From Sporopachydermia quercuum (lineage: Eukaryota), in assembly GCA_001599295.1 (NCBI GenBank), contig BCGN01000005.1, forward strand, positions 496,001 through 560,000: DNA of 64,000 bases. The letters are read 5' to 3'. Positions within the stretch are counted from its first letter, which is position 1; each line of letters begins with the position of its first letter. The translations under genes were made by a program, and so were the position numbers. Positions 2,156 to 63,107 of the stretch are shown here, piece after piece. The notes under the pieces are model-generated. The model was not told the origin of the DNA. It saw only the letters and a program-made list of their open reading frames with translations, and searched no databases.

Positions 2156-3379
2156 TCAATCATGTTCGTTATCCTCCATTTTCTTCTGGTGAACTGTTTT
2201 AAACACAATGTCGCTATTAATATCATCGTTATCAGATATTGAAATTTCGTTTTCTCTTTCAATATTAGTACGCCACTGTTGATTCTTTTCTATATCTTCT
2301 GAATTTGTTTCATTCAACTCTTGAGCTGGTTTATTCTTTTTACTTCTAAATCTTGGAAACAATAAAAATTGAGAGGAACCTTTGGAAGACAGGGTGCCCG
2401 GACTATTATCGTGTTCATAGTCAACACTCCAATTATCAGCAGAAGGTTTCTGAAATCCGTTAGATGTAGGATTCGAAGAGTTATTGCCTGAAGATGCCCA
2501 CATAGAAGCCAAAGGAAGTGATAATACTACGAAGAGTACTGAAATTGCAGTAAAACCTTCAGGACCTTGGTTTGGTAAACAATAATTAATCAGCACTAGA
2601 ACACCAGGAATAATCATTGTTTGAGTAGACATAATGAATAAAATATGGAAAGAGTCAAACTTTCTTAATCCTAAATATCTTCTTGATCTAATAGCCAAAA
2701 GAAGTTTAGTATTAAGAATTATTGACTGAAGTAGAATCGACACAGCGAATAGAATAATAGGTACTAGTCCAGCCCATGAAGGAATGATAGTACCCTGGTA
2801 TAGGGTGAGAATCTGAGAGATAGCAGCATATAAGTAGAAACCAATGACAATTGCTCCCATTAGTATACTAATTGCCTGAACAAAATAGCCAACTTTTAAA
2901 ACTTCTGGAGATTGAAAAATAACTCTCACTTGGAAAATCATTGATGCCTCAATAGAAGCAATGAGCAGAACTTGCATAACCGTAGTAACGCTAGTGGTAA
3001 CTAGATCACCCTCAGTTACATCATAAAAGAATCCAGTGAAATGATTACTAACACTTGAGAATGGACCAGTACAATAACTGATATATAATCCTGAATGGAT
3101 AATCATCAATATTAGAGATAATTGATTGAGAATAAAAGTTGGTGTGGTACGCCGTTTAATACATAGAATTAAAACAATACTTGTTAGACATCCCGCACCA
3201 ATTCTGACAGCCATGATAATTGCCAGTTGCACAGTTTTGATTGCAAACTTATCTATTTCACTCAACGGTACTTCATATTGAAACCCATCAACTGATGTTA
3301 TATTCACCAGTTGATCAGCTCCCGGATTGTAATTTTCGGGGAATCCAAGCGTAGGGTCACGGTTATCTATGGCATCCAT
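2156..3379 (-). CDS. STE2: Alpha-factor pheromone receptor (class D GPCR)
   Basis: Seven hydrophobic segments. Ste2 motifs TPTFILNQLSL, LIASIEASMIFQVRVIF, KLLLAIRSRRYLGLRKFDSFHILFIMSTQTMIIP and LSLPLASMWA. Confidence 0.97.
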   Translation of the reverse strand: MDAIDNRDPTLGFPENYNPGADQLVNITSVDGFQYEVPLSEIDKFAIKTVQLAIIMAVRIGAGCLTSIVLILCIKRRTTPTFILNQLSLILMIIHSGLYISYCTGPFSSVSNHFTGFFYDVTEGDLVTTSVTTVMQVLLIASIEASMIFQVRVIFQSPEVLKVGYFVQAISILMGAIVIGFYLYAAISQILTLYQGTIIPSWAGLVPIILFAVSILLQSIILNTKLLLAIRSRRYLGLRKFDSFHILFIMSTQTMIIPGVLVLINYCLPNQGPEGFTAISVLFVVLSLPLASMWASSGNNSSNPTSNGFQKPSADNWSVDYEHDNSPGTLSSKGSSQFLLFPRFRSKKNKPAQELNETNSEDIEKNQQWRTNIERENEISISDNDDINSDIVFKTVHQKKMEDNEHD

Positions 3380-4890: not shown

Positions 4891-4973
4891 GATGCGGTGG
4901 CTCAATGGTAGAGCTTTCGACTCCAGGTTAAGTTGTCATCGAAGGGTTGCAGGTTCAATTCCTGTCCGTGTCA
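4891..4973 (+). tRNA. tRNA-Trp(CCA) with 11-nt intron (4927-4937)
   Basis: Acceptor stem GATGCGG/CCGTGTC, A-box TGGCTCAATGG, anticodon arm TTCGA-CT-CCA...TCGAA, T-loop GGTTCAATTCC, then a poly-T Pol III terminator. Closely resembles yeast tRNA-Trp. Confidence 0.95.
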
Positions 4974-45733: not shown

Positions 45734-48316
45734 TTATTCTAAAGAGCTGAATTCTGAGTCAATCTCTTCAACCTCTTGGTACTGTTTTCTGGTATTTCTG
45801 GTACTACAATTACAAGTAATGCGTTAGTATTTGTTGAATAAGGGTTGATAGCCTTTTAGCATACAACATATTTGAATTCAATATAATCTTGAAAAATTCA
45901 GTGTACCATAGCATATTAGAGGATTCCTGTTGATACTTGTGGATAGTACTAGCTTCGTACACCGTTGATTCAATTGCCACCTTTTGATTCCTGTTTCTCC
46001 TTTCATTGTTGTTCTAAAAATAAACTTTTCTGTAAGAATCCTTCATTGAAAACCTTTCATTTCATTCATTCCTTCATTCGATGCTTCATTCTCCCTGTTG
46101 AAGTACTATATTCAGCTGTTCCAATTCAATGATATTTCCTGCAGTTGACAGTCCAACAACAGCAATGAAAATCAATCCATAATATCAGCAAGTATCATAT
46201 AATAAAGACATAGAATCAAGTAGCTATTCTCATTTTCAATACTTACGGTCGTTTTCTTATTTTTTCAGTTTCTTCTTCTTCTTCTTCTATTTGGATTATT
46301 TCATCATCAACAAAATTATCATCACCAAAATCATCATCATCTATGGCAAAAGATTGAGAATTCGAATCTGATTCAGAACTTGACACAACTTCTCTTGATT
46401 TTCTCTTGTTATTCTTATTTGTTTTCGTTGACTTTACTGGTTTGGCAGTTGTTGATCTCGTTGAGCTTTTTGGTTTAACAATTTTCTTCTCATTTGAATT
46501 TGTTTTCCTTGTTTTTACTGCTGAGGTTGTTGTAGTTAGAGTTGAAGTTGAAGTTGAAATGTTATGCTTCTGTTTGGGTTTCTGATACTTTTGTTAGTAA
46601 AACGTATAAACTAGTAAAAGGGTGACCAACAAAGCAATAGCACTAATAAACAGAAATGTGACTCATCAAACTGTTTTCCCTCTCTTTTGATCATTAATTC
46701 TATTCTTCCTTCCTACTTTTCTCTCTTTTTCTTCGAACAATACTTACATCAATAAATGAGTCCTTATCTATATCATAATTAGCCATTAATCCATCTAACT
46801 GTTCCTTCAGTGATGTTTCTACGAACTCTTTTAATGCATTTTTATCATCCTTATCAACAAATCTTCTAACCGCTTCATTCATTCCATTTTCTGGTAATAA
46901 TTCCAAATTGTCCTGGCCTAAAAACGTTTGCACTAATTCTTGGATTTTAACGTTTTCTACTCCGTCATCTTTTCCGGACTTGTCTGAACCTCCATTATTG
47001 CTTCCATTGTTCTTGCCGTTTCTATTCCCGCTATCATTTCCGCTATTCTGGTTATTCTTCCCTAGGGCCGAACCCAAATTCCGAGACCTCCGTTTATGGA
47101 AATTGACAACCCCATTAACATTAGCAACAATTCCCACAAATCTATTGGAAAATCGACGAGGATTCTCAACTTCATAACCACCAGAATAATCAACATTCAA
47201 TCTAATCAACGGCAGCGGAATCTCGTTGTTTTCTCTATCAAAATCTTCACCTTGTCTTGATAGCCACTGGCTTTTGGCGTCTTGTACTAAAGAATTAACA
47301 AGATTTATCAAATATCTCGTAACCAGATTCTTGCTTTTCGGACCAGGAGTTAAACCGGAATTACTTAAATCAATATTCCGTAAGATAAAGGGTCTAATCG
47401 TCGTTAATGGTATTGCTTGTAACGAATAATTACGTTTATGAATATTAATAATGAAGACATGTTTCTCTGCAACCTCAGACTCTGATAAAGAGGTTGCAAC
47501 TGATGAACCAGGCTGTAGAACTTCAAATTGGCTTATTGGGTTGTATTTCGGTACCGGTATACATTCATGTTCATGGCCCCATACTACTAGATCTAATAGG
47601 TTCGGCAGGAAATACTCAGGGATGTAATTAGTCGCACTGTGGGCTATATGATTCTGATGAATAGCCAAAATATTGAACCATTCGCCCTGAGCAATATTTG
47701 GTTGTAGAAACTTCACTTTCTCATCGCGGAAGGTCCTATGGAGCCTTTCATCTCTAATGCTTGGTAAGCCATAGAGAGCTAGTTTCGTTACCCCTTTTTG
47801 AAATAATAAAGGAACCACTGTTATATCGTCATTCTGAGAGATTTGACCGAAATGATTGATCAATCCTGTGGTTGATAAGACATCCATTGGTGCCAATAGT
47901 CCTTCACCTGCTGCATCATCATGATTGCCAGAGATTGAAAAGAATGGTAAAGAAACGTTAATATTTGGATCTTCATAGTTGACATAGTTGAACAGAGGAT
48001 CATTAATAACTTCGCTAGTATCACCAATAACTTCCAATTCGCATGGTTTGTCTCCAAGACAATACTGTCGTAATAATCTTATAACATGATACATCGATTT
48101 CTTTGATGGTTTATTGATATGGAATAGATCACCAGCTTGAAGGATCATATCAACGTCGTTATCCTTTGCAATGGCTAAGATTTCCTGAAACGTTTTCCAT
48201 GCGTCATCTCCAAGAATTGCGTCACTTTCGCCATATCCGATATGATTATCCGTGGTGATTAGGATGGAGATAGTGTCAGGGCCTTTTGGGGTCGATTGTA
48301 CTCTAAGCACATCCAT
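45734..48316 (-). CDS. MRE11: Mre11 nuclease; predicted exons 46748-48316, 46247-46581 and 45734-45803 (657 aa)
   Basis: Phosphoesterase motifs TDNHIGY, GDLFH, ISGNHDD, HQNH, WGHEHEC, QPGSSVATSL and ENPRRFSNRF. Intron 1 (46582-46747): GTAAGT...TACTAAC...CAG. Intron 2 (45804-46246): GTAAGT...TACTAAC...TAG. Both joins keep the frame; exon 3 is less certain. Confidence 0.93.
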
Positions 48317-49238
48317 CAAGAAATGGGGTAGAATTATGCAAATATTGGGTTTTGGATTGGATTTAAAAGGATGCTAATGTTTGAAATGGCAGTGTCAAGG
48401 ATGAAACTTTTCCCGGATCCCGGAATTGATTCCGAAGCGGATTCAGAACGGGAAGTTATCTTGTGATTAATCCAAGGCGATATACCGAGATACTGAGTTG
48501 GATATTCGATTATGTAATTCAAAATTGAGATGTGTAGTCTTCAGAGTTGCCCCTCAAAGCCTTTGCAAGGTTTTTTTTTTATTCTGAAGACTGAAGAGTT
48601 AAGTAACGTGTCAACTGCATAAATACTTTGAGGTGAAATAAGCGCTTATTATATTCTAAATACGAAGGTATGTTCTTAAAGGTATGACAACTTGTATAAT
48701 GTTGTTCAGTACATAAAAAATAGGTGGAATATTAGTACTTTCCATAGATCATTCAATGACCATTTATCTCCAATCTTTATAGTTGTCCCTAAAATATCAC
48801 ATGACAATTACAAGCCTTTTATGATTACATTATCTGATTCAATTGAGTGACTTTCGGGACGGAAGATAAACAAACTCCACAAAGGCACTTGTTTCTCTTC
48901 CGACAGCCAATTTAGAGCCAACTTTTTCGGCTCAATTTCCCAATTCGAGACATCGCAATTAATAAATTGCATTCTATTGTATAAGCCTCTATTAGAATTT
49001 CAACAACTGTTTCTTACAATAGAATCACAGTTCATATTTCAACGCACATACATCATATAGATGCGTTCATCGAGAAACACATAACCAACGGAACTAGTGC
49101 GGAATAGAGCGGCACAACAGTTGGGAAGTCTGCCTAAAACGGCAGTATTGAACCATACTAATACGGTATACCTTCCGAGAAACCTTATTTCTCACTTTAT
49201 TCCAGCCATTGTCATCTAATCATCGTCTTGAAGCCNCA

Positions 49239-54782
<5,544 letters not shown>

Positions 54783-56870
54783 AGAGGAGAAGTTAGAAGT
54801 TCGGAAATGATATTAGAGAATTACGGAGACTATTATNAGTTTTTAATATTTCGGAAAGTATAATGAAATGTCGGAAATTATGTGCTTACCTCTAGTTTAT
54901 CAAAATGTATGACAGCTTCTTTCAACAGAACTCACACAATGCTGTTTTATTAAACAGACGAACCAATAAATCGTTATTCCCTTCTATTTGCACCAAAATA
55001 AGCTGCCTGAAAGGGACAAAGATTTTTAATTCCCATCCATTCGTCATTTGTATGTTGTAATTTACAGTTCTTCAGCCATTGACAGCAATTCATTCGTTCA
55101 TTCGATTGTCGGCTCAGTTTTTTACAACAATTTGCAACTATTCACAGTACACAATTTTTCCATTACAATAGGGAAGTTTCTTCCAAAAGAATTTGATTGG
55201 ATAGAGGCTCTTTTGGCCCCATTTTTTTCCATTTGGTCACCGTACTTTTTCTATAAATACAATCCATCTGCTGCTGATAGAACAATAATGCACTGCAAAT
55301 TAGGTATTTCTAGGTATTTCTTCCTGGGTGCGTATTGAGGTTTTATTCTTCTTTCTAGAAAAAAAGAAGAGTGATTTAGCGACCAGTGAATAAAAATTCA
55401 TTAGCTTGTCCTGCTAATCAAAATAAAGAAAACCAGTTGTGAGAGAAAAACTCCGTACAAATGAGGAAGTCCAAACATACAATCTATGCGATTCACTTGA
55501 CTTTCAGTAATTGGCACCCTTTTACTATAAAAATTTCATCTCCAATAAACGATAGCTTGTTTTTACCTCAATTCGCTCTTAACTTTTTTTTTTTCATTCA
55601 TTATAATCTTAATTGATTTGTTGTTTGTTATCCTTTCTTGCTAATCGCCTTTTCATGGATCACTTCACGTCTCCATCTGTTGAGTCCCCCAAGGGACAGT
55701 ATGATAAGACGATAATGCTATTCAATAGTGGGCAATGGAACCGAACTGAGTTGAACAAAAATAAGGAAATTTGCTGTCGTTTCGAATTATTTATAGTTGC
55801 GTGCTTTGATGGAATTTTTTTTTTTGATTTGTCGTTAAGATTGATTGAATTGCTCGAGCATTGCGAATAAGCAAGCAGATGAATTGCTTCTTCTGTCGGT
55901 AAGAAAGAACAATAAAGATATCCGGTTCCTGAAGAGTTAGGGTTGTATTGTCCGGGTCAAACTGAGGACGGAACTACGGTAAGTAAGAAAGTGAGGCACG
56001 ATCACACTGGCCGCAGGGATGAAAAAGTAATAGTGGGATGAATTATTATGTATTGTATCTCATGAATTAAGGGATTTGCAATTTTTAGGAAGAATCATCT
56101 TCGGGATTGGCTAGTTTTTATCCAGAACTCGTATGAAATCAGTTGCTCATGTTTGTAGGTCAGAGGAGGATCTCTCCACCNTAGCTCAATAGGGAAAGCA
56201 TATGTCGTCGTACAATCAATGTAAATAGTAGGATATTCAAAGGATTTATATAAACATTCTAATAATGTACGGTATCAAATACTTAACAATAATCAGTCAT
56301 TCTACTCTTTCATATACCTCTTAGAAATCTTACCATATCCTCATCCCAATATTCCTACCTTTCCCCGATCCCTCTCTTTCCCGGATCGCTTATTTTATAC
56401 CACACCCATAAATTGTCACGTGTCCTGTTCCATGTGGCAATGACATTCTCTTCATCCNCAAACCCACTATGACATTTCATCTGCTCCATACATTCTTCAT
56501 TTTGTCACACTTGTCACACTTGTCCCCCTTGTCGCATTCAGCCCTCATAAGTCTTTTTGTGATCGTAAAACCCCCAACCTCCTACCAATTGCTTTACTCC
56601 ATTTTTCTTATTGACAGTAAATCATTACTATTTATCATACAAACCACCGCATTTATCAACCAATCTATAATAATTCTGTCAATTCTTTGTCAGGACAGAA
56701 CCCTGATAATTGTGATGAGATTGATTCTTTGATTCATCTCAATTGTGGCATTTGTCCTGTTTTTTTTTAGGATAGACCTAAACCTAAGGATTAACCATAG
56801 TATAAACAACAATCAAGGATAATAAATAGCATATCAAACTATTTTAGCATATTGAGAATAAACAAAGATA

Positions 56871-59800
56871 ATGTCAGACTTCCCGTCACATACACCTTTC
56901 AAGGTGAGATCCATTTACGAATACACGTCGGATCATCCGGATGATTTGCCCTTCGGAGTTGGTCAACAGATTACTGTTGACGTTATTGAAGATGATGAAT
57001 GGTTTACCGGTAGTTACACTGATAAAGATGGTGTAATACAAACGGGGATGTTTCCTAAGAATTTTGTTGAGTACGAGAAGCCGAAAGTGCCTGTGACAAG
57101 ACCAGGCCACGGTCGGAATGCGACTGAGACTGGACCAGAGCGGACCACGGAACCCGTTGCACCCGCTGCACCCGCGGCTGTTGCTAAGCCACAGTCTGAG
57201 AATGACGGATGGGGCGATGGTGAAGACATTGAAGATAGTGAAAATGAGGAAGATTATCAGCCACCAAAGCCTGTAATAGCTCCTGAGGTGGTTGCCCCAA
57301 AGCTGGAACCGGGGGCCGAACCGGACCCGGAAAATGTCTATGGATCGGAAGCTGACGCCGCAGCTAATCCTAAACCAAAACCTAAACCTAAACCGAGCTT
57401 GCCTTCACCATTCCCCAAATCGGATACAGGTCTATCCGAAAAGAAACAGACTCCGACAAAAGAGCATAAAGATCCAGGTTTGGGATCTCCGCCGACTCCA
57501 AAGGGTAGAAATAACGCCTTTCTTAATCGAATTGCCGCTTTTAACACTTCCGACGATCCTGCTCCGTTACCTACATTTTCTCCTAAACCTTCTTCTCATA
57601 TTAAAAAGCCATTTGTTGCTCCGGCTCCTTCTGCGTATGTGCCTCCTCCTATTGCAAGTATTTCTCATACTGTTCATGTTGATCGCCGAGCTACCAGTCC
57701 CGATGCACGTGATCTTTCGGGATCAAATGCCGACTCTAAGCCGGATCATGAGTCACAATACTCCAATAGCTTGGTGGAGGAAGACGAAGGGCCCAAAATG
57801 AGTTTGAAAGAACGAATTGCATTGTTACAAAAAAAACAAATGGAGGAACAAGCCAAAGCGGAAGCCGCTCTGCGGAAGAAAAAAGAGAAAAAGAAGAAAT
57901 TAGCCGAGGGGAAAGAGAACAGAGACACAAATGAGGCAGCCCACGGAATAGAGGACTTAACTTTAGCCGATTCTGCTTCTTCCGCCCCATCGGGTAGATC
58001 AGGTAGTATTGCTTCCGCTAGTAGTATGGGAACAGATACTGATTCAGTATCTTTAGTGCCACCAATTCCAAATCTGGCGGAAATAGACTCTATTATTGAA
58101 AGCGACGATTTTGACGACGCTACAGAACAAGAATTACAAACCGGTACCGAAACTGACAGGGTGGCACAGCAGGACACTCAATTTCAGCCGGGAGGTGAAT
58201 TAAAGGTGACTCAACCGGAAGAAAACGACTCCAATGCCGAAAATAACTCGGGTGACGGATCAGAGCGTACTGATCCCGACGAAGACTCCGACGAAGACGA
58301 AATAGATGCTGAGGAACGGAGAAAAATGGACCTTCGGGCCAGAATGGCCAAACTTTCCGGTGGAATGGGAATGCCAGGAATGGGATTACCCGGAATGATG
58401 ATGCCTGGCTTTGCGTCTGTTCCATCATCCGTTACGAAGAAAAAGAGTAGTAAGACCCGGAAACAGTCAGAACAATCTTCTGAAGAGCAAGCAGAAGAGT
58501 TCAGGGAAGCCCCGAGAATGGTCCCAATGGTACCAATTGTTCCCGTCGGTCTACCGGGGATGAATCCTATTGCTCCGCCCGTTGCACCTCCTGTTGCCAT
58601 TGATTCCGATGCTGAATCCGATGCTGAATCCGATGCCGACGCGGAAGCCGACGCCGAATCCGATATTGAGGCGAAAGAAGACATAGAAGTAGAAGCACCT
58701 ACGGACGAGATAAACGTGGATTCAACTAGCGAAATAAATGTTGCACCAGAGTTGGAGCTCATATCTAACAATGAGACGGAATTGGAAGTAATTCATCCTA
58801 AAAAGGCAGGCGAGTTCCTAAGTTATGATCCCAGTAACCAAAACGGGAAAGGGAGCCGAAAAGGGAAAAGAAATCCTGAGGATACCGAAATAGGCGAAGA
58901 AGAAGACGAAACGGGAGGGGAAGAAGACGAAAGTAGTGATAGAAAAGAGGAAATCTCCCATATTGCTACTGCTCCTCCTGTTCCGCCTACCCCTGCTGTG
59001 CCACCTGTTCCTCCCATTCCTTCTCACACAGCCACAATTTCTACCCCTCCGTCCCAGCCTCATCAAACACATAGAGCCCCTCCCCCGCCTCCTCCAGCCG
59101 CTGCTCCTCTTCCCCCTGTTCCCGCAATCCCAGCCGTTTCAGCTGTTCGAACTGCACCACCGGTTCCGATCCCAATGCCAAAACCAATAGCTGGCTCCGA
59201 GGAAACCATAGAAATAGAAGCAGAAGCCGAGTTTTCGGATGAAATCACTGGTTACGAAGCGGATGAGGATACCGATATAAACGCCCAACAATCGGATGAC
59301 CCCGCAAGTTACCCCACCAGCACAGTAAAAAGCACCCCAACCCGCTCGGAGATCCCGATCCCGAGACTTCCCAGCCGATCCTCAACACTTCCGCCGCCGA
59401 TTCCNAACGTTGGGGCTATTCCTCTTCCCCCTGTTTCCCCTCCAGATATTCCAAATGCCGCGCCGCCTGTTCCTCATGCAATTAGGCGTGCCGCCACTGA
59501 AGAGGGGTTCGGATCGGCTACTACTACTGCACCCCTATTTCCCCCGCCACCCCCTCCTCCAGGAGCTGCGCCACCAATTCCAATAGCTAGCAAGCCACCT
59601 CCTGGCCCGCCAGTTTCAACGGCAATTTCTTCTACTGAGCCACCGGTTACTCCCCATGCTGTTCCTATTACATCTCCCACTGCTTCAGCTCCTCCAGCTC
59701 CAACTACTGTGTCACCAGTTGCCCAACATTCCCCATCAATGCCCATCAGATCGTCCCGAGAACTGTCCCGCTCTAAGACCATCATTTCCGAAACCGCGGG

Positions 59801-60638
59801 AAGAATTGCGCAAAACATCGATTTAGCGGAAACCTCGGATTGGTGGCTGTACCCGAACCGGGCACCCCCCTTCATTGAGACGGAAGCCGACAAGGGAAAC
59901 CTTATTTTCGAAACAGACGAGTCACAAACAGCAAGAAGAGGAGGCAGAGTGACTGTCCAAAGGGAAGTGTACGTTCTCTATCCCGACTACTCCCAAACTA
60001 TAATCTCATGCAGCTATGACGCGCACGATGCAGGAAATACTGCCCAATTCGAACAAAGTCACGTGGAAGCCCCGTTCACTCTGCGCCAGGATCAACTGCA
60101 GCAAATATACACAAAATACGGGAATCAAATCAACCAAAAACTGGCCAAATTGGGANTCTCTTCCAACAGTAACGGAACAACCGTTGCCGGATTAGGCAAA
60201 ACCGAGAACTTTGTCTCCTATTTCACGGATCAAGTTCCGGGTATCTTGCGCCGCATCGGATTCAAAACGTACGGAGCCATCGTTTATGAAAATTTGGGAA
60301 ATGCCAGCGTTAAACAACACGATGAGATTCGACCCGGTGATGTGATCTTATTCCAAAATGCTGTTTTTAAAGGACATAAAGGTTTGCATCAGAAGTACAC
60401 TACTGAGGTTGGCAAGGTGTATATGGGAAATGGATCAGAAAGCGGAAATAACAGCAACGGAGTTAAAGTACTTGTTGGATTTGTTAGTGAATGGGATGGC
60501 AGTAAAAACAAGGTTAAAGTGTATGAACAGACAGAAAGCGGGAAAGTTAAGATTGACAGTTATAAGATTTCCGATTTGAAAACAGGTGAAGTGAAAGTGT
60601 TCCGATTGATTGGGAGAGATTTCGTGGGATGGGATTGA
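56871..60638 (+). CDS. BBC1: SH3-domain, proline-rich actin patch regulator Bbc1
   Basis: N-terminal SH3 (PFKVRSIYEY...GMFPKNFV), KMSLKERIALLQ, LRARMAKLSGG, ITGYEADEDTD, long polyproline region and conserved C-terminus (IRPGDVI...VKVFR...FVGW). Confidence 0.92.
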   Translation: MSDFPSHTPFKVRSIYEYTSDHPDDLPFGVGQQITVDVIEDDEWFTGSYTDKDGVIQTGMFPKNFVEYEKPKVPVTRPGHGRNATETGPERTTEPVAPAAPAAVAKPQSENDGWGDGEDIEDSENEEDYQPPKPVIAPEVVAPKLEPGAEPDPENVYGSEADAAANPKPKPKPKPSLPSPFPKSDTGLSEKKQTPTKEHKDPGLGSPPTPKGRNNAFLNRIAAFNTSDDPAPLPTFSPKPSSHIKKPFVAPAPSAYVPPPIASISHTVHVDRRATSPDARDLSGSNADSKPDHESQYSNSLVEEDEGPKMSLKERIALLQKKQMEEQAKAEAALRKKKEKKKKLAEGKENRDTNEAAHGIEDLTLADSASSAPSGRSGSIASASSMGTDTDSVSLVPPIPNLAEIDSIIESDDFDDATEQELQTGTETDRVAQQDTQFQPGGELKVTQPEENDSNAENNSGDGSERTDPDEDSDEDEIDAEERRKMDLRARMAKLSGGMGMPGMGLPGMMMPGFASVPSSVTKKKSSKTRKQSEQSSEEQAEEFREAPRMVPMVPIVPVGLPGMNPIAPPVAPPVAIDSDAESDAESDADAEADAESDIEAKEDIEVEAPTDEINVDSTSEINVAPELELISNNETELEVIHPKKAGEFLSYDPSNQNGKGSRKGKRNPEDTEIGEEEDETGGEEDESSDRKEEISHIATAPPVPPTPAVPPVPPIPSHTATISTPPSQPHQTHRAPPPPPPAAAPLPPVPAIPAVSAVRTAPPVPIPMPKPIAGSEETIEIEAEAEFSDEITGYEADEDTDINAQQSDDPASYPTSTVKSTPTRSEIPIPRLPSRSSTLPPPIXNVGAIPLPPVSPPDIPNAAPPVPHAIRRAATEEGFGSATTTAPLFPPPPPPPGAAPPIPIASKPPPGPPVSTAISSTEPPVTPHAVPITSPTASAPPAPTTVSPVAQHSPSMPIRSSRELSRSKTIISETAGRIAQNIDLAETSDWWLYPNRAPPFIETEADKGNLIFETDESQTARRGGRVTVQREVYVLYPDYSQTIISCSYDAHDAGNTAQFEQSHVEAPFTLRQDQLQQIYTKYGNQINQKLAKLGXSSNSNGTTVAGLGKTENFVSYFTDQVPGILRRIGFKTYGAIVYENLGNASVKQHDEIRPGDVILFQNAVFKGHKGLHQKYTTEVGKVYMGNGSESGNNSNGVKVLVGFVSEWDGSKNKVKVYEQTESGKVKIDSYKISDLKTGEVKVFRLIGRDFVGWD

Positions 60639-60880
60639 TGGTTATATTTTTTGATAGGTTTACTGTTTTACTGTTTTACTATGGACATGAAAACCTGTTA
60701 AGTGAATCTTGGTATATAGTATTTGCTTAGATCTTATTGAGCATGATTGAAATGGGAGATGATATCAATCTGTTAGTTTCTAGTTAAATTAATGTAATAA
60801 ATTATGGTGAATTAATTGAGTAAGTCAAAATGCTGATATTCGTCGCTTATGTCATATAGATTATGCAGAAATACAATTTG

Positions 60881-60888
60881 GTCACGTG
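60881..60888 (+). promoter_or_regulatory. Cbf1 site upstream of SAM synthetase
   Basis: GTCACGTG in the BBC1-SAM2 intergenic region, consistent with sulfur/methionine regulon logic. Confidence 0.4.
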
Positions 60889-61943
60889 GTTTGTAAGAAT
60901 ATTCCGGAAATAATAGTAAACGTGGGATCAGCGATGAGAAATACCCAGGATATCATATGTGAGACATGTGAGAGAGGACTACTGATGATATCGCCGGCAA
61001 ACGGAGGTTTTTAATGGGCAATAATTGATATACTTCCTAACTATAATAGAATTTGTAGTCTATAAGGACATAAACATGTGGGTTGTTTATTTTATACATT
61101 TTTAGTGGAATTATTGTATATATCACAAGAATATGACTTTCATATAATTATTTCCGAGATTGCTATTACGGAAACGATACAATAGATTCATCTTGTTCAT
61201 TCTACACAAGAGTCTTCATAAATATACTGGCTGACTCCTGTTTTTGGCCAGTTTACTCATTGTATTTACTGTCAGGATTGGTTTCTAGTCAGTATTTCAT
61301 ATATAATGTAATATTCAGCCTATTATTCCAGATATTCAATGCATCCAATCAATCTCTCATGTATCCCCTTTTATTTATTCCATATAATTTCCGCCTTTTG
61401 CATAATCTCCTGTATTGCCCTATTGAACCTACTATCCGGTTAACTCACTTGACTAATCCATTGTATCGGGTTGCTATTTGACGCACACACCAGAAGCATT
61501 AGGGTAAACCATTCCATTAACATTTTTCCCAGAGTTAACCCACATTCAGGAAGACTCATTTTCCGACTACCAATTTATATTTAATCAATTCAATAAAGAC
61601 AAATCCAACCTCTAGTCTAACGCTTACTACCAAGCTCAGCTATCTCTCAGTTATCCCCTGAACCGGATCTTTGAACTGTTTTCCTTATTTAAAATTTCTA
61701 TCCGGATAAGCCTCCACAAACGCCCAAGGTCTGAACTTAAATTTTAATTCATCTCGCTCGTGTTTGTTGCTCTTCCTTTTCTACTTTTTTTCTGCTCTTC
61801 TTTACTACTTCTATAACTCTATGGAAGCATATAAACTACAGGTGAATTGTACTTATAATTGATATGACAAATATCAGTAATTGCTATTTTGTAATTCGTA
61901 ATTAGTACTATCTATCAACTTTCATCTTCTTCTCTGCTGAAAA

Positions 61944-63107
61944 ATGGATTCTAAACCAGGAGATCATTTCTACTTCACCTCTGAGTCAGTTGGAGAAGGG
62001 CATCCAGATAAAATCTGTGATCAAGTCTCAGATGCTATTCTTGACGCCTGTTTAGCCCAAGACCCTCACTCCAAGGTTGCCTGCGAAACAGCATCGAAAA
62101 CTGGTATGATTATGGTGTTTGGTGAGATCACCACTTCAGCTACAATTGATTTCCAAAAGACAGTTAGAGATACTATTAGAGAGATTGGATACGATTCATC
62201 AGACAAAGGATTTGATCATAAGACTTGTAATGTCTTAGTTGCCATTGAAGAACAATCACACGAAATTGCTAAAGGTGTGCATCATGGCCGTGATATTGAA
62301 GATATTGGTGCTGGTGATCAGGGAATCATGTTTGGTTATGCAACTGATGAGACAGAAGAATTATTACCATTGACTATCTTATTGGCCCACAAATTGAATA
62401 AAGCTCTTGCTGATGCTAGAAGAGATGGTTCTTTGCCATGGTTAAGACCAGATACCAAAACCCAGGTCACTATTGAGTACGTAAATCAAAACGGTGCTAC
62501 TATTCCTTTAAGAGTTGATACTGTTGTTGTGTCTACTCAACATGCTGATGAGATCTCAACAGAAGATTTGAGAAAAGCTGTATTAGAGCAGATCATTAAA
62601 AAAACAATCCCTGCAAGTTTACTTGATGATAAAACCATTTATCATATTCAACCGTCAGGCAGATTTGTTATTGGTGGGCCTCAAGGTGATGCAGGACTTA
62701 CTGGTAGAAAGATCATTGTTGATACTTATGGTGGTTGGGGTGCTCATGGCGGTGGTGCATTTTCTGGTAAAGATTTCTCAAAGGTTGACAGATCCGCTGC
62801 CTATGCTGCTAGATGGGTTGCTAAATCATTGGTGGCCGCTGGTTTGGCTAAACGAGCGTTAGTTCAATTTTCTTATGCTATTGGTGTTGCTGAACCATTA
62901 TCTATTCATGTTGATACTTATGGTACTTCTAAGTATACATCATCACAATTAGTTGGAATCATACGTGATAATTTTGATTTGAGACCTGGTGTTATTGTTA
63001 GAGATTTAGACCTTGCTAGACCTATATATAGACAAACTGCTGCTTATGGTCATTTTACCAATCAGAGTTATCCATGGGAGAAACCAAGAGCTTTAAAGCT
63101 TGATTAG
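61944..63107 (+). CDS. SAM2: S-adenosylmethionine synthetase
   Basis: [29 protein letters not shown] and [15 protein letters not shown]...GGGAFSGKD. Confidence 0.97.

What the first reader, a model, noticed from the sequence alone, without database searches (positions are those of the whole stretch)
46900..61720. ~15-kb domain strongly enriched in CCG/CGG (TCCG, CGGA, CCGG) in coding and non-coding DNA
Seen: by hand count there are ~21 CCG/CGG trinucleotides in 52621-52850 of GCN2, versus 1 in a similar length of SAM2 (62401-62640) and 2 in the last ~420 nt of GCN2. GCN2 and BBC1 use CGG, CCG and TCG codons heavily. The words also recur in non-coding DNA (48410-48490, 54800-54880, 61430-61710) and in all codon phases. 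The rest of the window is CG-poor, yet the genes look like ordinary yeast orthologues. Inference: this is not simple codon bias. Candidates are a local context-specific mutation or gene-conversion process, or selected arrays of sites for a CGG-binding zinc-cluster or chromatin factor (TTCCGA also resembles the CDEIII core), marking a special chromosomal domain.
Basis: partly seen in the sequence, partly recalled or inferred. Interest (0 to 1): 0.7.

Follow-up and report, generated by a model that had tools for sequence, protein, structure and literature searches.

The report
TCGGAA-rich islands inside long yeast genes
In this budding yeast, a hundred or more stretches of 3-15 kb, mostly lying over long ordinary genes, are densely written with the short DNA word TCGGAA on both strands by way of synonymous codon choices, which looks like an undescribed protein-binding code laid over working genes.

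Summary
The enrichment is real: 502 CCG/CGG in 14.8 kb against 292 in the other 49 kb. It is not one special domain. Pattern scans found at least 105 such clusters on 11 contigs, about 4-7% of the genome, mostly over long, functionally unrelated genes and thinner deep inside large chromosomes.

At synonymous sites, the allele that creates CCG/CGG is favoured 5-6-fold, other G/C alleles only 1.05-1.5-fold. The fitted word is T-CGG-A-A, on both strands and in all frames, transversions included. GC at motif-neutral sites is not raised. There is no nucleosome periodicity, and no cytosine methyltransferase was found. GCN2 relatives in 60 fungal metagenome loci lack the signal.

CGG-N7-CGG, the AcuK/AcuM-type zinc-cluster spacing, is about 1.3-fold enriched in 2 of 3 gene sets, and the genome encodes that factor family.

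Best reading (0.55): weakly selected, cooperative landing zones for a Zn2Cys6 protein. Binding and function are inferred, not shown. Centromere, GC-biased conversion and low expression are not supported. The scan noted this before on other DNA of this genome (RAD50, e1-7518470).

The parts
49239..54782 (+). GCN2 ORF (1847 aa), core of the island: 260 CCG/CGG (46.9/kb, o/e 2.33) and 55 TCGGA/TCCGA; the signal fades in the last ~400 nt
   Evidence: Pfam RWD, Pkinase, HisRS-like and anticodon-binding domains; counts; segmentation
56871..60638 (+). BBC1-like ORF (1255 aa), second high block: 163 CCG/CGG (43.3/kb, o/e 1.48)
   Evidence: Pfam SH3 and AIM3_BBC1_C; counts
46700..48316 (-). MRE11 ORF, intermediate shoulder of the island (14.8/kb, o/e 1.10)
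   Evidence: Pfam Mre11_DNA_bind; counts
48317..49238 (.). Divergent MRE11-GCN2 intergenic DNA, enriched (18 CCG/CGG, o/e 1.63)
54783..56870 (.). GCN2-BBC1 intergenic DNA, weakly enriched (22 sites, o/e 0.97; background intergenic 0.64)
60639..61943 (.). BBC1-SAM2 intergenic shoulder (16 sites, o/e 1.36)
61944..63107 (+). SAM synthetase gene, first gene outside the island (5.2/kb, o/e 0.35); marks the right boundary
49100..52700 (.). Stretch holding 10 of the 11 CGG-N7-CGG / CCG-N7-CCG direct repeats of the window (starts 49100, 49376, 49525, 49650, 50048, 51468, 51754, 52317, 52661, 52686)

Best explanation
The islands are dense fields of binding half-sites (T-CGG-A-A, either strand, about one CGG/CCG per 25 bases) for a Zn2Cys6 zinc-cluster protein, gained in this lineage. 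SHOWN: motif-specific, strand-symmetric choice among synonymous codons; a discrete island versus non-island state; a bias to long genes; spill-over into neighbouring genes and spacers; absence from relatives. INFERRED: each site is kept by weak selection of about the strength of codon bias (ln 5 is about 1.6 in scaled units). The benefit is cooperative, so a region is either above a density threshold or not; long ORFs cross it most easily, which gives bimodality and spreading. The bound protein marks the domain for a chromatin or chromosome function rather than for a pathway. The most likely function is to keep long, moderately expressed gene bodies in a proper chromatin state (about 0.3); the next is to seed meiotic axis or recombination domains (about 0.2). 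The best named candidate factor is the AcuK/AcuM (Ert1/Rds2/Gsm1-type) family, whose known site is CGG-N7-CGG. This is a lead, not an identification.
For: Four-fold sites: odds ratio island vs background is 4.88 (C) and 5.99 (G) when the allele creates CCG/CGG, and 1.05-1.48 when it does not (22 vs 112 genes). Pseudo-likelihood fit: core 0.91 and 0.75 on the two strands, -1T 0.61, +1A 0.33, +2A 0.48, CpG -0.11, GC 0.13 vs 0.11 in background. Transversions take part: after C, CGA/AGA is 2.25 in islands and 0.20 outside. Motif-neutral synonymous GC is 0.357-0.380 in islands, 0.399 in background and 0.356 in blind-picked long non-island genes. CGG-N7-CGG: 115 vs 81 null in discovery, 141 vs 110 in 37 held-out ORFs, 0 of 100 shuffles reaching either, 11 vs 13 in background. 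AGG-N7-CGG: 57 vs 38 and 64 vs 51, with the reverse order not enriched; only 1 of 256 N7 pairs is tandem-like. CGG-N7-CGG is the AcuK/AcuM and Aod2/Aod5 site (PMC12719309, passages); TCGGA(A/C) is bound by the monomeric Zn2Cys6 protein Pho7 (PMC6265462, passages). Three Zn-cluster + PAS_13 loci exist (two read). Specificity ratio is 3.87 in own GCN2, 0.53 in own background and 0.27-1.12 in 60 related GCN2 loci. Length and an island neighbour predict island state (logit 1.53+-0.43 and 3.09+-0.66). Even the PRP8-family gene uses CGG for 46% of 149 Arg.
Against: No binding, expression or polymorphism data were obtained. In the third set (5 blind-picked long island genes) N7 was 28 vs 25, 59 of 200 shuffles reaching it, so it did not replicate there. 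N9 is enriched in all three sets (147/121, 151/127, 65/50), partly through tandem copies (26 of 298). Most sites are single, and paired sites are a small minority. Known zinc-cluster sites lie in promoters, whereas here coding DNA is richer than spacers. AGG-N7-CGG was found post hoc in pooled data. Many long genes are not islands (5 of 10 blind-picked), and the ACC gene 91 kb from a contig end is not one. The two AcuK/AcuM-type proteins read look ordinary, and 72 Zn-cluster hits is not an evident expansion (comparison recalled).
Confidence: 0.55

Rival explanations
1. Neutral, sequence-directed drive or protection: a protein or repair activity that recognises TCGGA lowers loss of the motif or favours the motif-bearing strand in heteroduplex repair, locally and self-reinforcingly, with no benefit to the cell.
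For: Island genes share no function. Clusters are denser near contig ends: 44 of 90 within 300 kb against 32.5% expected, p=0.0015, as recombination often is (recalled). The signal may push amino acids: Lys>Arg at 12 of 45 conserved Lys columns in own GCN2 against 1-9 or none in 13 homologues.
Against: No general GC bias accompanies it. A transition-only repair bias (VSP-like, recalled) cannot shift AGR to CGN, yet (CGA+CGG)/(AGA+AGG) rises from 0.23 to 1.05-2.56. Mere loss of CCG hypermutability would lift the ratio from 0.53 to about 1, not to 2.5-3.9 (inference). A pair-spacing preference is not expected from simple repair.
Confidence: 0.22
2. Mosaic ancestry: islands are tracts introgressed from an unsampled sister lineage whose whole genome is TCGGA-rich.
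For: The state is bimodal, neighbours are correlated and the distribution along chromosomes is patchy.
Against: Codon choices unrelated to the motif match the rest of the genome (GAA 0.72/0.71, TTC 0.44/0.43, TGT 0.70/0.71). Density follows ORF limits, drops in spacers and fades at 3' ends (last 500 nt below the middle in 22 of 29 ORFs). No fungal locus with such a bias was found among 60. It only moves the question to the donor.
Confidence: 0.08
3. A DNA-modification landscape (methylated or protected CCG/CGG), as in Dnmt5-type linker methylation (recalled).
For: CCGG and CCG are known methyltransferase targets (recalled); CpG o/e rises from 0.61 to 1.02 in the domain.
Against: No PF00145 match in the genome, while the control rang in 9 of 14 genomes. 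CpG outside CCG/CGG is not enriched. There is no 10-bp or nucleosome-scale period in overall site density.
Confidence: 0.05
4. Ordinary GC-biased gene conversion, local GC content or relaxed codon selection in weakly expressed genes.
For: Islands are 5-8 points richer in GC and have a slightly lower optimal-codon index (median 0.428 vs 0.463, p=0.048).
Against: Motif-neutral GC is not higher. GC-matched 1-kb windows (0.40-0.42) range from 5 to 46 sites. Only 10 of 61 low-index genes, and 6 of 17 long low-index genes, are islands.
Confidence: 0.03
5. Centromere-related domain marked by CDEIII-like TTCCGA sites.
For: The word TTCCGA resembles the CDEIII core bound by the zinc-cluster protein Cep3 (recalled).
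Against: There are 6-21 clusters on each of contigs C1-C8, lying over essential-type genes. No Cep3 match was found, though that search had no positive control.
Confidence: 0.02

Closest known systems
AcuK/AcuM, Aod2/Aod5 and Ert1/Rds2/Gsm1 Zn2Cys6-PAS factors and their CGG-N7-CGG sites (PMC12719309, passages; PMC10954478, passages)
   Same: CGG core; direct-repeat spacing of 7 enriched in 2 of 3 gene sets; the factor family is present
   Different: Known sites are single elements in promoters of gluconeogenic and alternative-oxidase genes. Here there are hundreds of mostly single sites per domain, inside unrelated long ORFs.
Fission-yeast Pho7, a monomeric Zn2Cys6 protein binding TCGG(A/C)... 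sites (PMC6265462, passages)
   Same: Single CGG triplet in a TCGGA context with an A/T-rich 3' side
   Different: Pho7 reads a 12-14 bp promoter site; here no preference was seen beyond about -2 to +2/+3
Hop1/Red1 cohesin-independent axis islands of S. cerevisiae (PMC9071447, passages)
   Same: Regional islands tied to longer ORFs and slightly lower expression, with no general GC rise; a Hop1-like gene is present
   Different: Those islands are defined by ChIP and read through nucleosomes by the Hop1 PHD-like domain. The word 'motif' does not occur in that paper's main text, and no telomere association was found there. The length bias here is much stronger (median 1103 vs 459 aa in a biased sample).
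CLAMP / GA-repeat density on the Drosophila X (PMC4945028, abstract and outline)
   Same: A chromosomal domain specified by evolved density of a short zinc-protein binding word
   Different: That case is a repeat expansion over a whole chromosome for dosage compensation; here it is point substitutions in codons, in scattered 3-15 kb islands
Cyanobacterial HIP1 and Neisseria/Haemophilus DNA uptake sequences (recalled, not looked up)
   Same: Short words accumulated on both strands inside coding DNA through synonymous and conservative changes
   Different: Those are bacterial, genome-wide, 8-12 bp, and tied to methylation or DNA uptake; here the word is 3-6 bp, eukaryotic and confined to islands
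Fission-yeast recombination hotspot motif 4156, TCGGCCGA (PMC6827382, passages)
   Same: A TCGG/CCGA-containing word with a chromosome-level effect; its binding protein is unknown
   Different: A single 8-bp palindrome suffices there; no such palindrome stands out here

Membership tests
Zn2Cys6 (zinc-cluster) binding sites | CGG triplet core read on either strand | tested here: met
Zn2Cys6 (zinc-cluster) binding sites | Fixed pair geometry (direct, inverted or everted) or monomer flanks | tested here: inconclusive
   Flanks T-CGG-A-A; N7 direct repeat enriched in 2 of 3 sets; inverted N4 under-represented
Zn2Cys6 (zinc-cluster) binding sites | Protein occupancy in vivo or in vitro | not testable with these tools
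   needs ChIP, footprinting or EMSA
AcuK/AcuM (Ert1/Rds2/Gsm1) regulon | Zn-cluster + PAS factor pair encoded in the genome | tested here: met
   3 loci with PAS_13 beside a Zn_clus hit; two ORFs read
AcuK/AcuM (Ert1/Rds2/Gsm1) regulon | Sites in promoters of gluconeogenic and alternative-oxidase genes | tested here: not met
   No such family among 58 island proteins scanned (19 had no family at the thresholds used); sites are denser in ORFs than in spacers. The promoters of PCK1, FBP1 and AOX themselves were not examined.
Point centromere (CDEIII/CBF3) | One site per chromosome | tested here: not met
   6-21 clusters on each of C1-C8
Point centromere (CDEIII/CBF3) | Cep3 encoded | tested here: inconclusive
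   no match, but the control rang nowhere
Dnmt5-type periodic CG methylation | C5 DNA methyltransferase gene | tested here: not met
Dnmt5-type periodic CG methylation | CpG enrichment with nucleosome-repeat periodicity | tested here: not met
GC-biased gene conversion domain | Raised GC at neutral sites regardless of context | tested here: not met
Hop1/Red1 meiotic axis islands | Association with long ORFs | tested here: met
Hop1/Red1 meiotic axis islands | Hop1 with a PHD-like chromatin-binding region | tested here: inconclusive
   HORMA gene at C3:1816 kb with a downstream Cys-containing stretch, split over several frames; exons not resolved
Hop1/Red1 meiotic axis islands | Cohesin-independent axis-protein enrichment | not testable with these tools
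   needs meiotic ChIP

The most novel reading that the evidence does not exclude
This lineage has recruited a zinc-cluster transcription factor, possibly of the AcuK/AcuM family, as a sequence-specific organiser of chromosome structure. It has rewritten the codons of many long genes into cooperative binding carpets that define meiotic axis/recombination or comparable structural domains, enriched toward chromosome ends. This would be a fungal, coding-sequence-embedded counterpart of motif-specified domains such as PRDM9 targets or dosage-compensation entry sites.
Probability: 0.22. Interest if true: 0.9.

Novelty: new variant of a known kind. Interest (0 to 1): 0.68.

Why it matters
It is a clean natural case of a second, DNA-level code written into synonymous positions, with islands and non-islands side by side in one small genome. 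Codon usage in these genes (CGG for up to 46% of Arg) is set by neither tRNA nor GC, which matters for codon-based inference in yeasts. Because the sites are synonymous, a gene can be recoded without changing its protein. That makes two old questions directly testable: whether dense low-affinity factor sites inside gene bodies do anything, and whether chromosome-scale domains in a yeast can be specified by motif density. Ten paper searches were run; those aimed at such domains listed no description of them. The library lacks most subscription papers, and no supplements were read.

Tried and rejected
Periodicity: there is no 10-bp or 140-200-bp period in overall site density in the window or in 25 island genes; only codon periodicity. 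Long direct or inverted repeats do not explain the signal. No C5 methyltransferase. The Cep3 search was blank and uncontrolled. Twelve short Zn-cluster loci scanned for unusual partner domains showed only Fungal_trans, Fungal_trans_2 or nothing; most of the 72 Zn-cluster hits were not read in full. Sequencing runs: no RNA holder listed, and three DNA rows from two studies may be the source itself. No reads were laid, so expression and polymorphism stay open. The amino-acid effect in GCN2 is only suggestive: R/(R+K) is 0.52, tied with one homologue and above the other 24, and GCN2 insertions are no richer in sites than aligned parts (0.22 vs 0.21). A strict 5'-to-3' polarity was considered: the 3' end often fades (22 of 29), but two blind-picked giant genes stay high to the stop. 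The end-of-chromosome bias among long genes alone is not significant (8/13 within 250 kb, 7/16 at 250-600 kb, 1/7 beyond; Fisher p=0.10). A replication-origin role was set aside by inference because stretches of several hundred kb on C1 and C4 show almost no clusters. Word searches of earlier findings returned only the RAD50 note.
Full report
OBSERVATION. Positions 46900-61720 hold 502 CCG/CGG (33.9 per kb, o/e 1.83) against 292 (5.9 per kb, o/e 0.59) in the remaining 49,180 bases. CpG outside CCG/CGG is nearly unchanged, 15.3 vs 12.5 per kb. The most enriched words are CCGA/TCGG, CGGA/TCCG, TCGGA and TCGGAA, with similar counts on both strands. Segmentation shows two gene-sized blocks, GCN2 (48801-54400) and BBC1 (56901-60600), with shoulders in MRE11 and the spacers. 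The genes are ordinary. The nearest named GCN2 homologues are from Nadsonia (41%) and Yarrowia (37%) over residues 1-600, so the organism is a divergent budding yeast; I did not identify it further.

NOT ONE DOMAIN. The window lies at C5:496001-560000 of a 16.4-Mb, 15-contig assembly. Compound patterns gave 3945 matches against 1333 for the reversed control, and 111 vs 10, 58 vs 3 and 67 vs 5 for three stricter ones. The 225 listed hits (100 of the 111, all of the others) merge into 105 clusters on C1-C11, a lower bound. Calibrating on 664 kb read in full gives about 6.7% of the genome in islands. The tool's forward and reverse counts differ (1535 vs 2410); doubling the forward count gives about 4%, so I state 4-7%. 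On C1-C7, 44 of 90 clusters lie within 300 kb of a contig end against 32.5% expected (p=0.0015). Density is about 6-14 per Mb within 500 kb of an end and 1-5 per Mb deeper. Clusters are not independent, and telomere repeats were seen at the starts of only 7 of 15 contigs.

WHICH GENES. In four contiguous regions, 20 of 185 ORFs of at least 150 codons are islands (21 or more sites per kb): 14/56, 3/72, 3/25 and 0/32. These regions were not blind: one flanks the window, two were chosen as rich and one as poor. The per-gene specificity is bimodal. Island frequency rises with length (4/73 below 400 aa, 5/10 above 1400 aa) and with an island neighbour; only 10 of 61 genes with a low optimal-codon index are islands. 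Ten PI3/PI4-kinase and HECT genes picked by family, not by motif, split 5 islands to 5 non-islands. Three of the non-islands lie more than 700 kb from a contig end, but the test on long genes alone is not significant. Pfam shows no shared function: XRN1-, midasin-, SEN1-, SEC3-, VPS8-, PRP8-, dynein-, CSF1-, Hobbit/FMP27-, PSME4/BLM10- and urea-amidolyase-type genes, among others (yeast gene names are recalled from the families). Spacers between two island genes are about twice background (o/e 1.37 vs 0.64).

WHAT IS SELECTED. At four-fold sites the C or G allele is 4.9-6.0 times more favoured in islands when it creates CCG/CGG and 1.05-1.48 times when it does not. A pseudo-likelihood model over 26,375 synonymous choices gives similar core weights on both strands, flanks T-CGG-A-A, no CpG term and the same GC term as background (background fit on 60 of 112 genes). 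At synonymous sites with A/T neighbours and no motif within 3 bases, GC is 0.357-0.380 in islands and 0.399 outside, so the GC rise is a product of the motif. After a C, CGA/AGA is 2.25 in islands and 0.20 outside. That shift needs A-to-C transversions, which excludes a deamination-type signature (inference). In 60 of 80 GCN2 loci from metagenomes the specificity ratio is 0.27-1.12, against 3.87 here and 0.53 in this genome's background. I left out 20 mostly short or duplicate loci by hand, and several of the 60 are the same species. The islands are therefore a gain, the background is typical, and GCN2 does not need the pattern.

SPACING. Against codon shuffles that keep the protein and local context, one short spacing stood out among 84 listed: the direct repeat CGG-N7-CGG, 115 vs 81. 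It replicated in 37 held-out island ORFs (141 vs 110), on both strands and in all frames, and is absent from background (11 vs 13). AGG-N7-CGG, found post hoc, is raised in both halves, while CGG-N7-AGG is not; inverted N4 is under-represented. Against this, a third, small set of five blind-picked genes gave 28 vs 25 for N7, and N9 is raised in all three sets, partly through tandem copies. The excess is about 1.3-fold, so most sites are single.

MECHANISM. A 5-6-base, strand-symmetric word with flank preferences, gained through all substitution types, with a weak helical-turn pairing, is what recognition by a protein would leave. CGG triplets are the common target of Zn2Cys6 proteins (PMC10954478, passages). 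Pho7 binds TCGGA-containing sites as a monomer (PMC6265462, passages). CGG-N7-CGG is the site of AcuK/AcuM and Aod2/Aod5 (PMC12719309, passages). The genome has 72 Zn-cluster matches, three of them beside a PAS_13 domain, and the two read have the expected layout. I infer weak selection per site, of the order of codon bias, with a cooperative threshold that explains the bimodal state, the preference for long ORFs and the spread to neighbours. Since targets share no pathway, the function is more likely structural: chromatin upkeep over long gene bodies, or meiotic axis/recombination domains. The latter is suggested only by analogy: S. cerevisiae axis islands favour long ORFs (PMC9071447, passages), a Hop1-like gene is present, and density rises toward chromosome ends. 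The absence of any general GC bias gives no support for high recombination there. A neutral drive or protection process acting through the same word cannot be excluded without polymorphism data. No methyltransferase, no periodicity and many islands per chromosome argue against methylation and centromeres.

COMPARISON AND NOVELTY. It works like motif-density-coded domains (CLAMP sites on the fly X, PMC4945028, abstract; HIP1 and uptake sequences, recalled) but is a member of none. It is not an AcuK/AcuM regulon in the known sense, because promoter location and target class are not met. A subphylum-wide codon study (PMC11540330, passages) discusses CGN avoidance, not local CGG islands. Searches aimed at such domains listed none; supplements were not read and could hold per-gene codon data for this species.

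VERDICT. The feature is real, genome-wide, lineage-specific and unexplained by GC, expression or methylation. It is probably a protein-read DNA code in coding sequence (0.55); the factor and the function are open. Interest 0.68.

Noticed in passing
G000 contig starts C2, C3, C4, C6, C7, C9, C10 (L041-L049) and end of C4 (L179): An 11-base telomere repeat, CCTCCCAACTA / TAGTTGGGAGG, so most large contigs are near whole chromosomes.
   Followed up: no
G000:C2:1581-1619 and C4:1898758-1898796 (L179:2000-6200): A subtelomeric element shared by the C2 start and the C4 end is itself a dense island (27-46 sites/kb) with short ORFs that have no Pfam family at E<=1e-15.
   Followed up: partly
G000:C1:1139001-1149000 (L186): A 3000-codon PI3-kinase-like gene with very low GC (0.28-0.30 over 5 kb) and 3 CCG/CGG per kb, near the middle of the largest contig; possibly a centromere-proximal GC trough.
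   Followed up: no
window 51670-51715: A GATTCG hexamer run encoding Asp-Ser repeats in a GCN2 insertion; the protein has about 190 residues absent from most homologues.
   Followed up: partly
G000:C3:1811601-1818340 (L199, L141): A Hop1-like HORMA gene split over several frames lies divergent from a short zinc-cluster gene with no other Pfam domain.
   Followed up: partly
window 61944-63107 and G000:C7:456637-457800: A second gene whose start resembles SAM synthetase lies on C7; neither copy is an island.
   Followed up: no
window 2156-3379 and 4891-4973: An STE2-like pheromone receptor ORF (name recalled from the translation) and a tRNA-Trp gene.
   Followed up: no
G000:C7 versus C1 and C4: Cluster density differs about five-fold between contigs (15.8 per Mb on C7, 3.2 on C1 and C4) and is not a simple function of contig length.
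   Followed up: partly
G000:C11:155169-156542: The third Zn-cluster + PAS_13 locus has its two domains in open frames of different length (660 and 758 aa), suggesting an intron or frameshift; not read.
   Followed up: no
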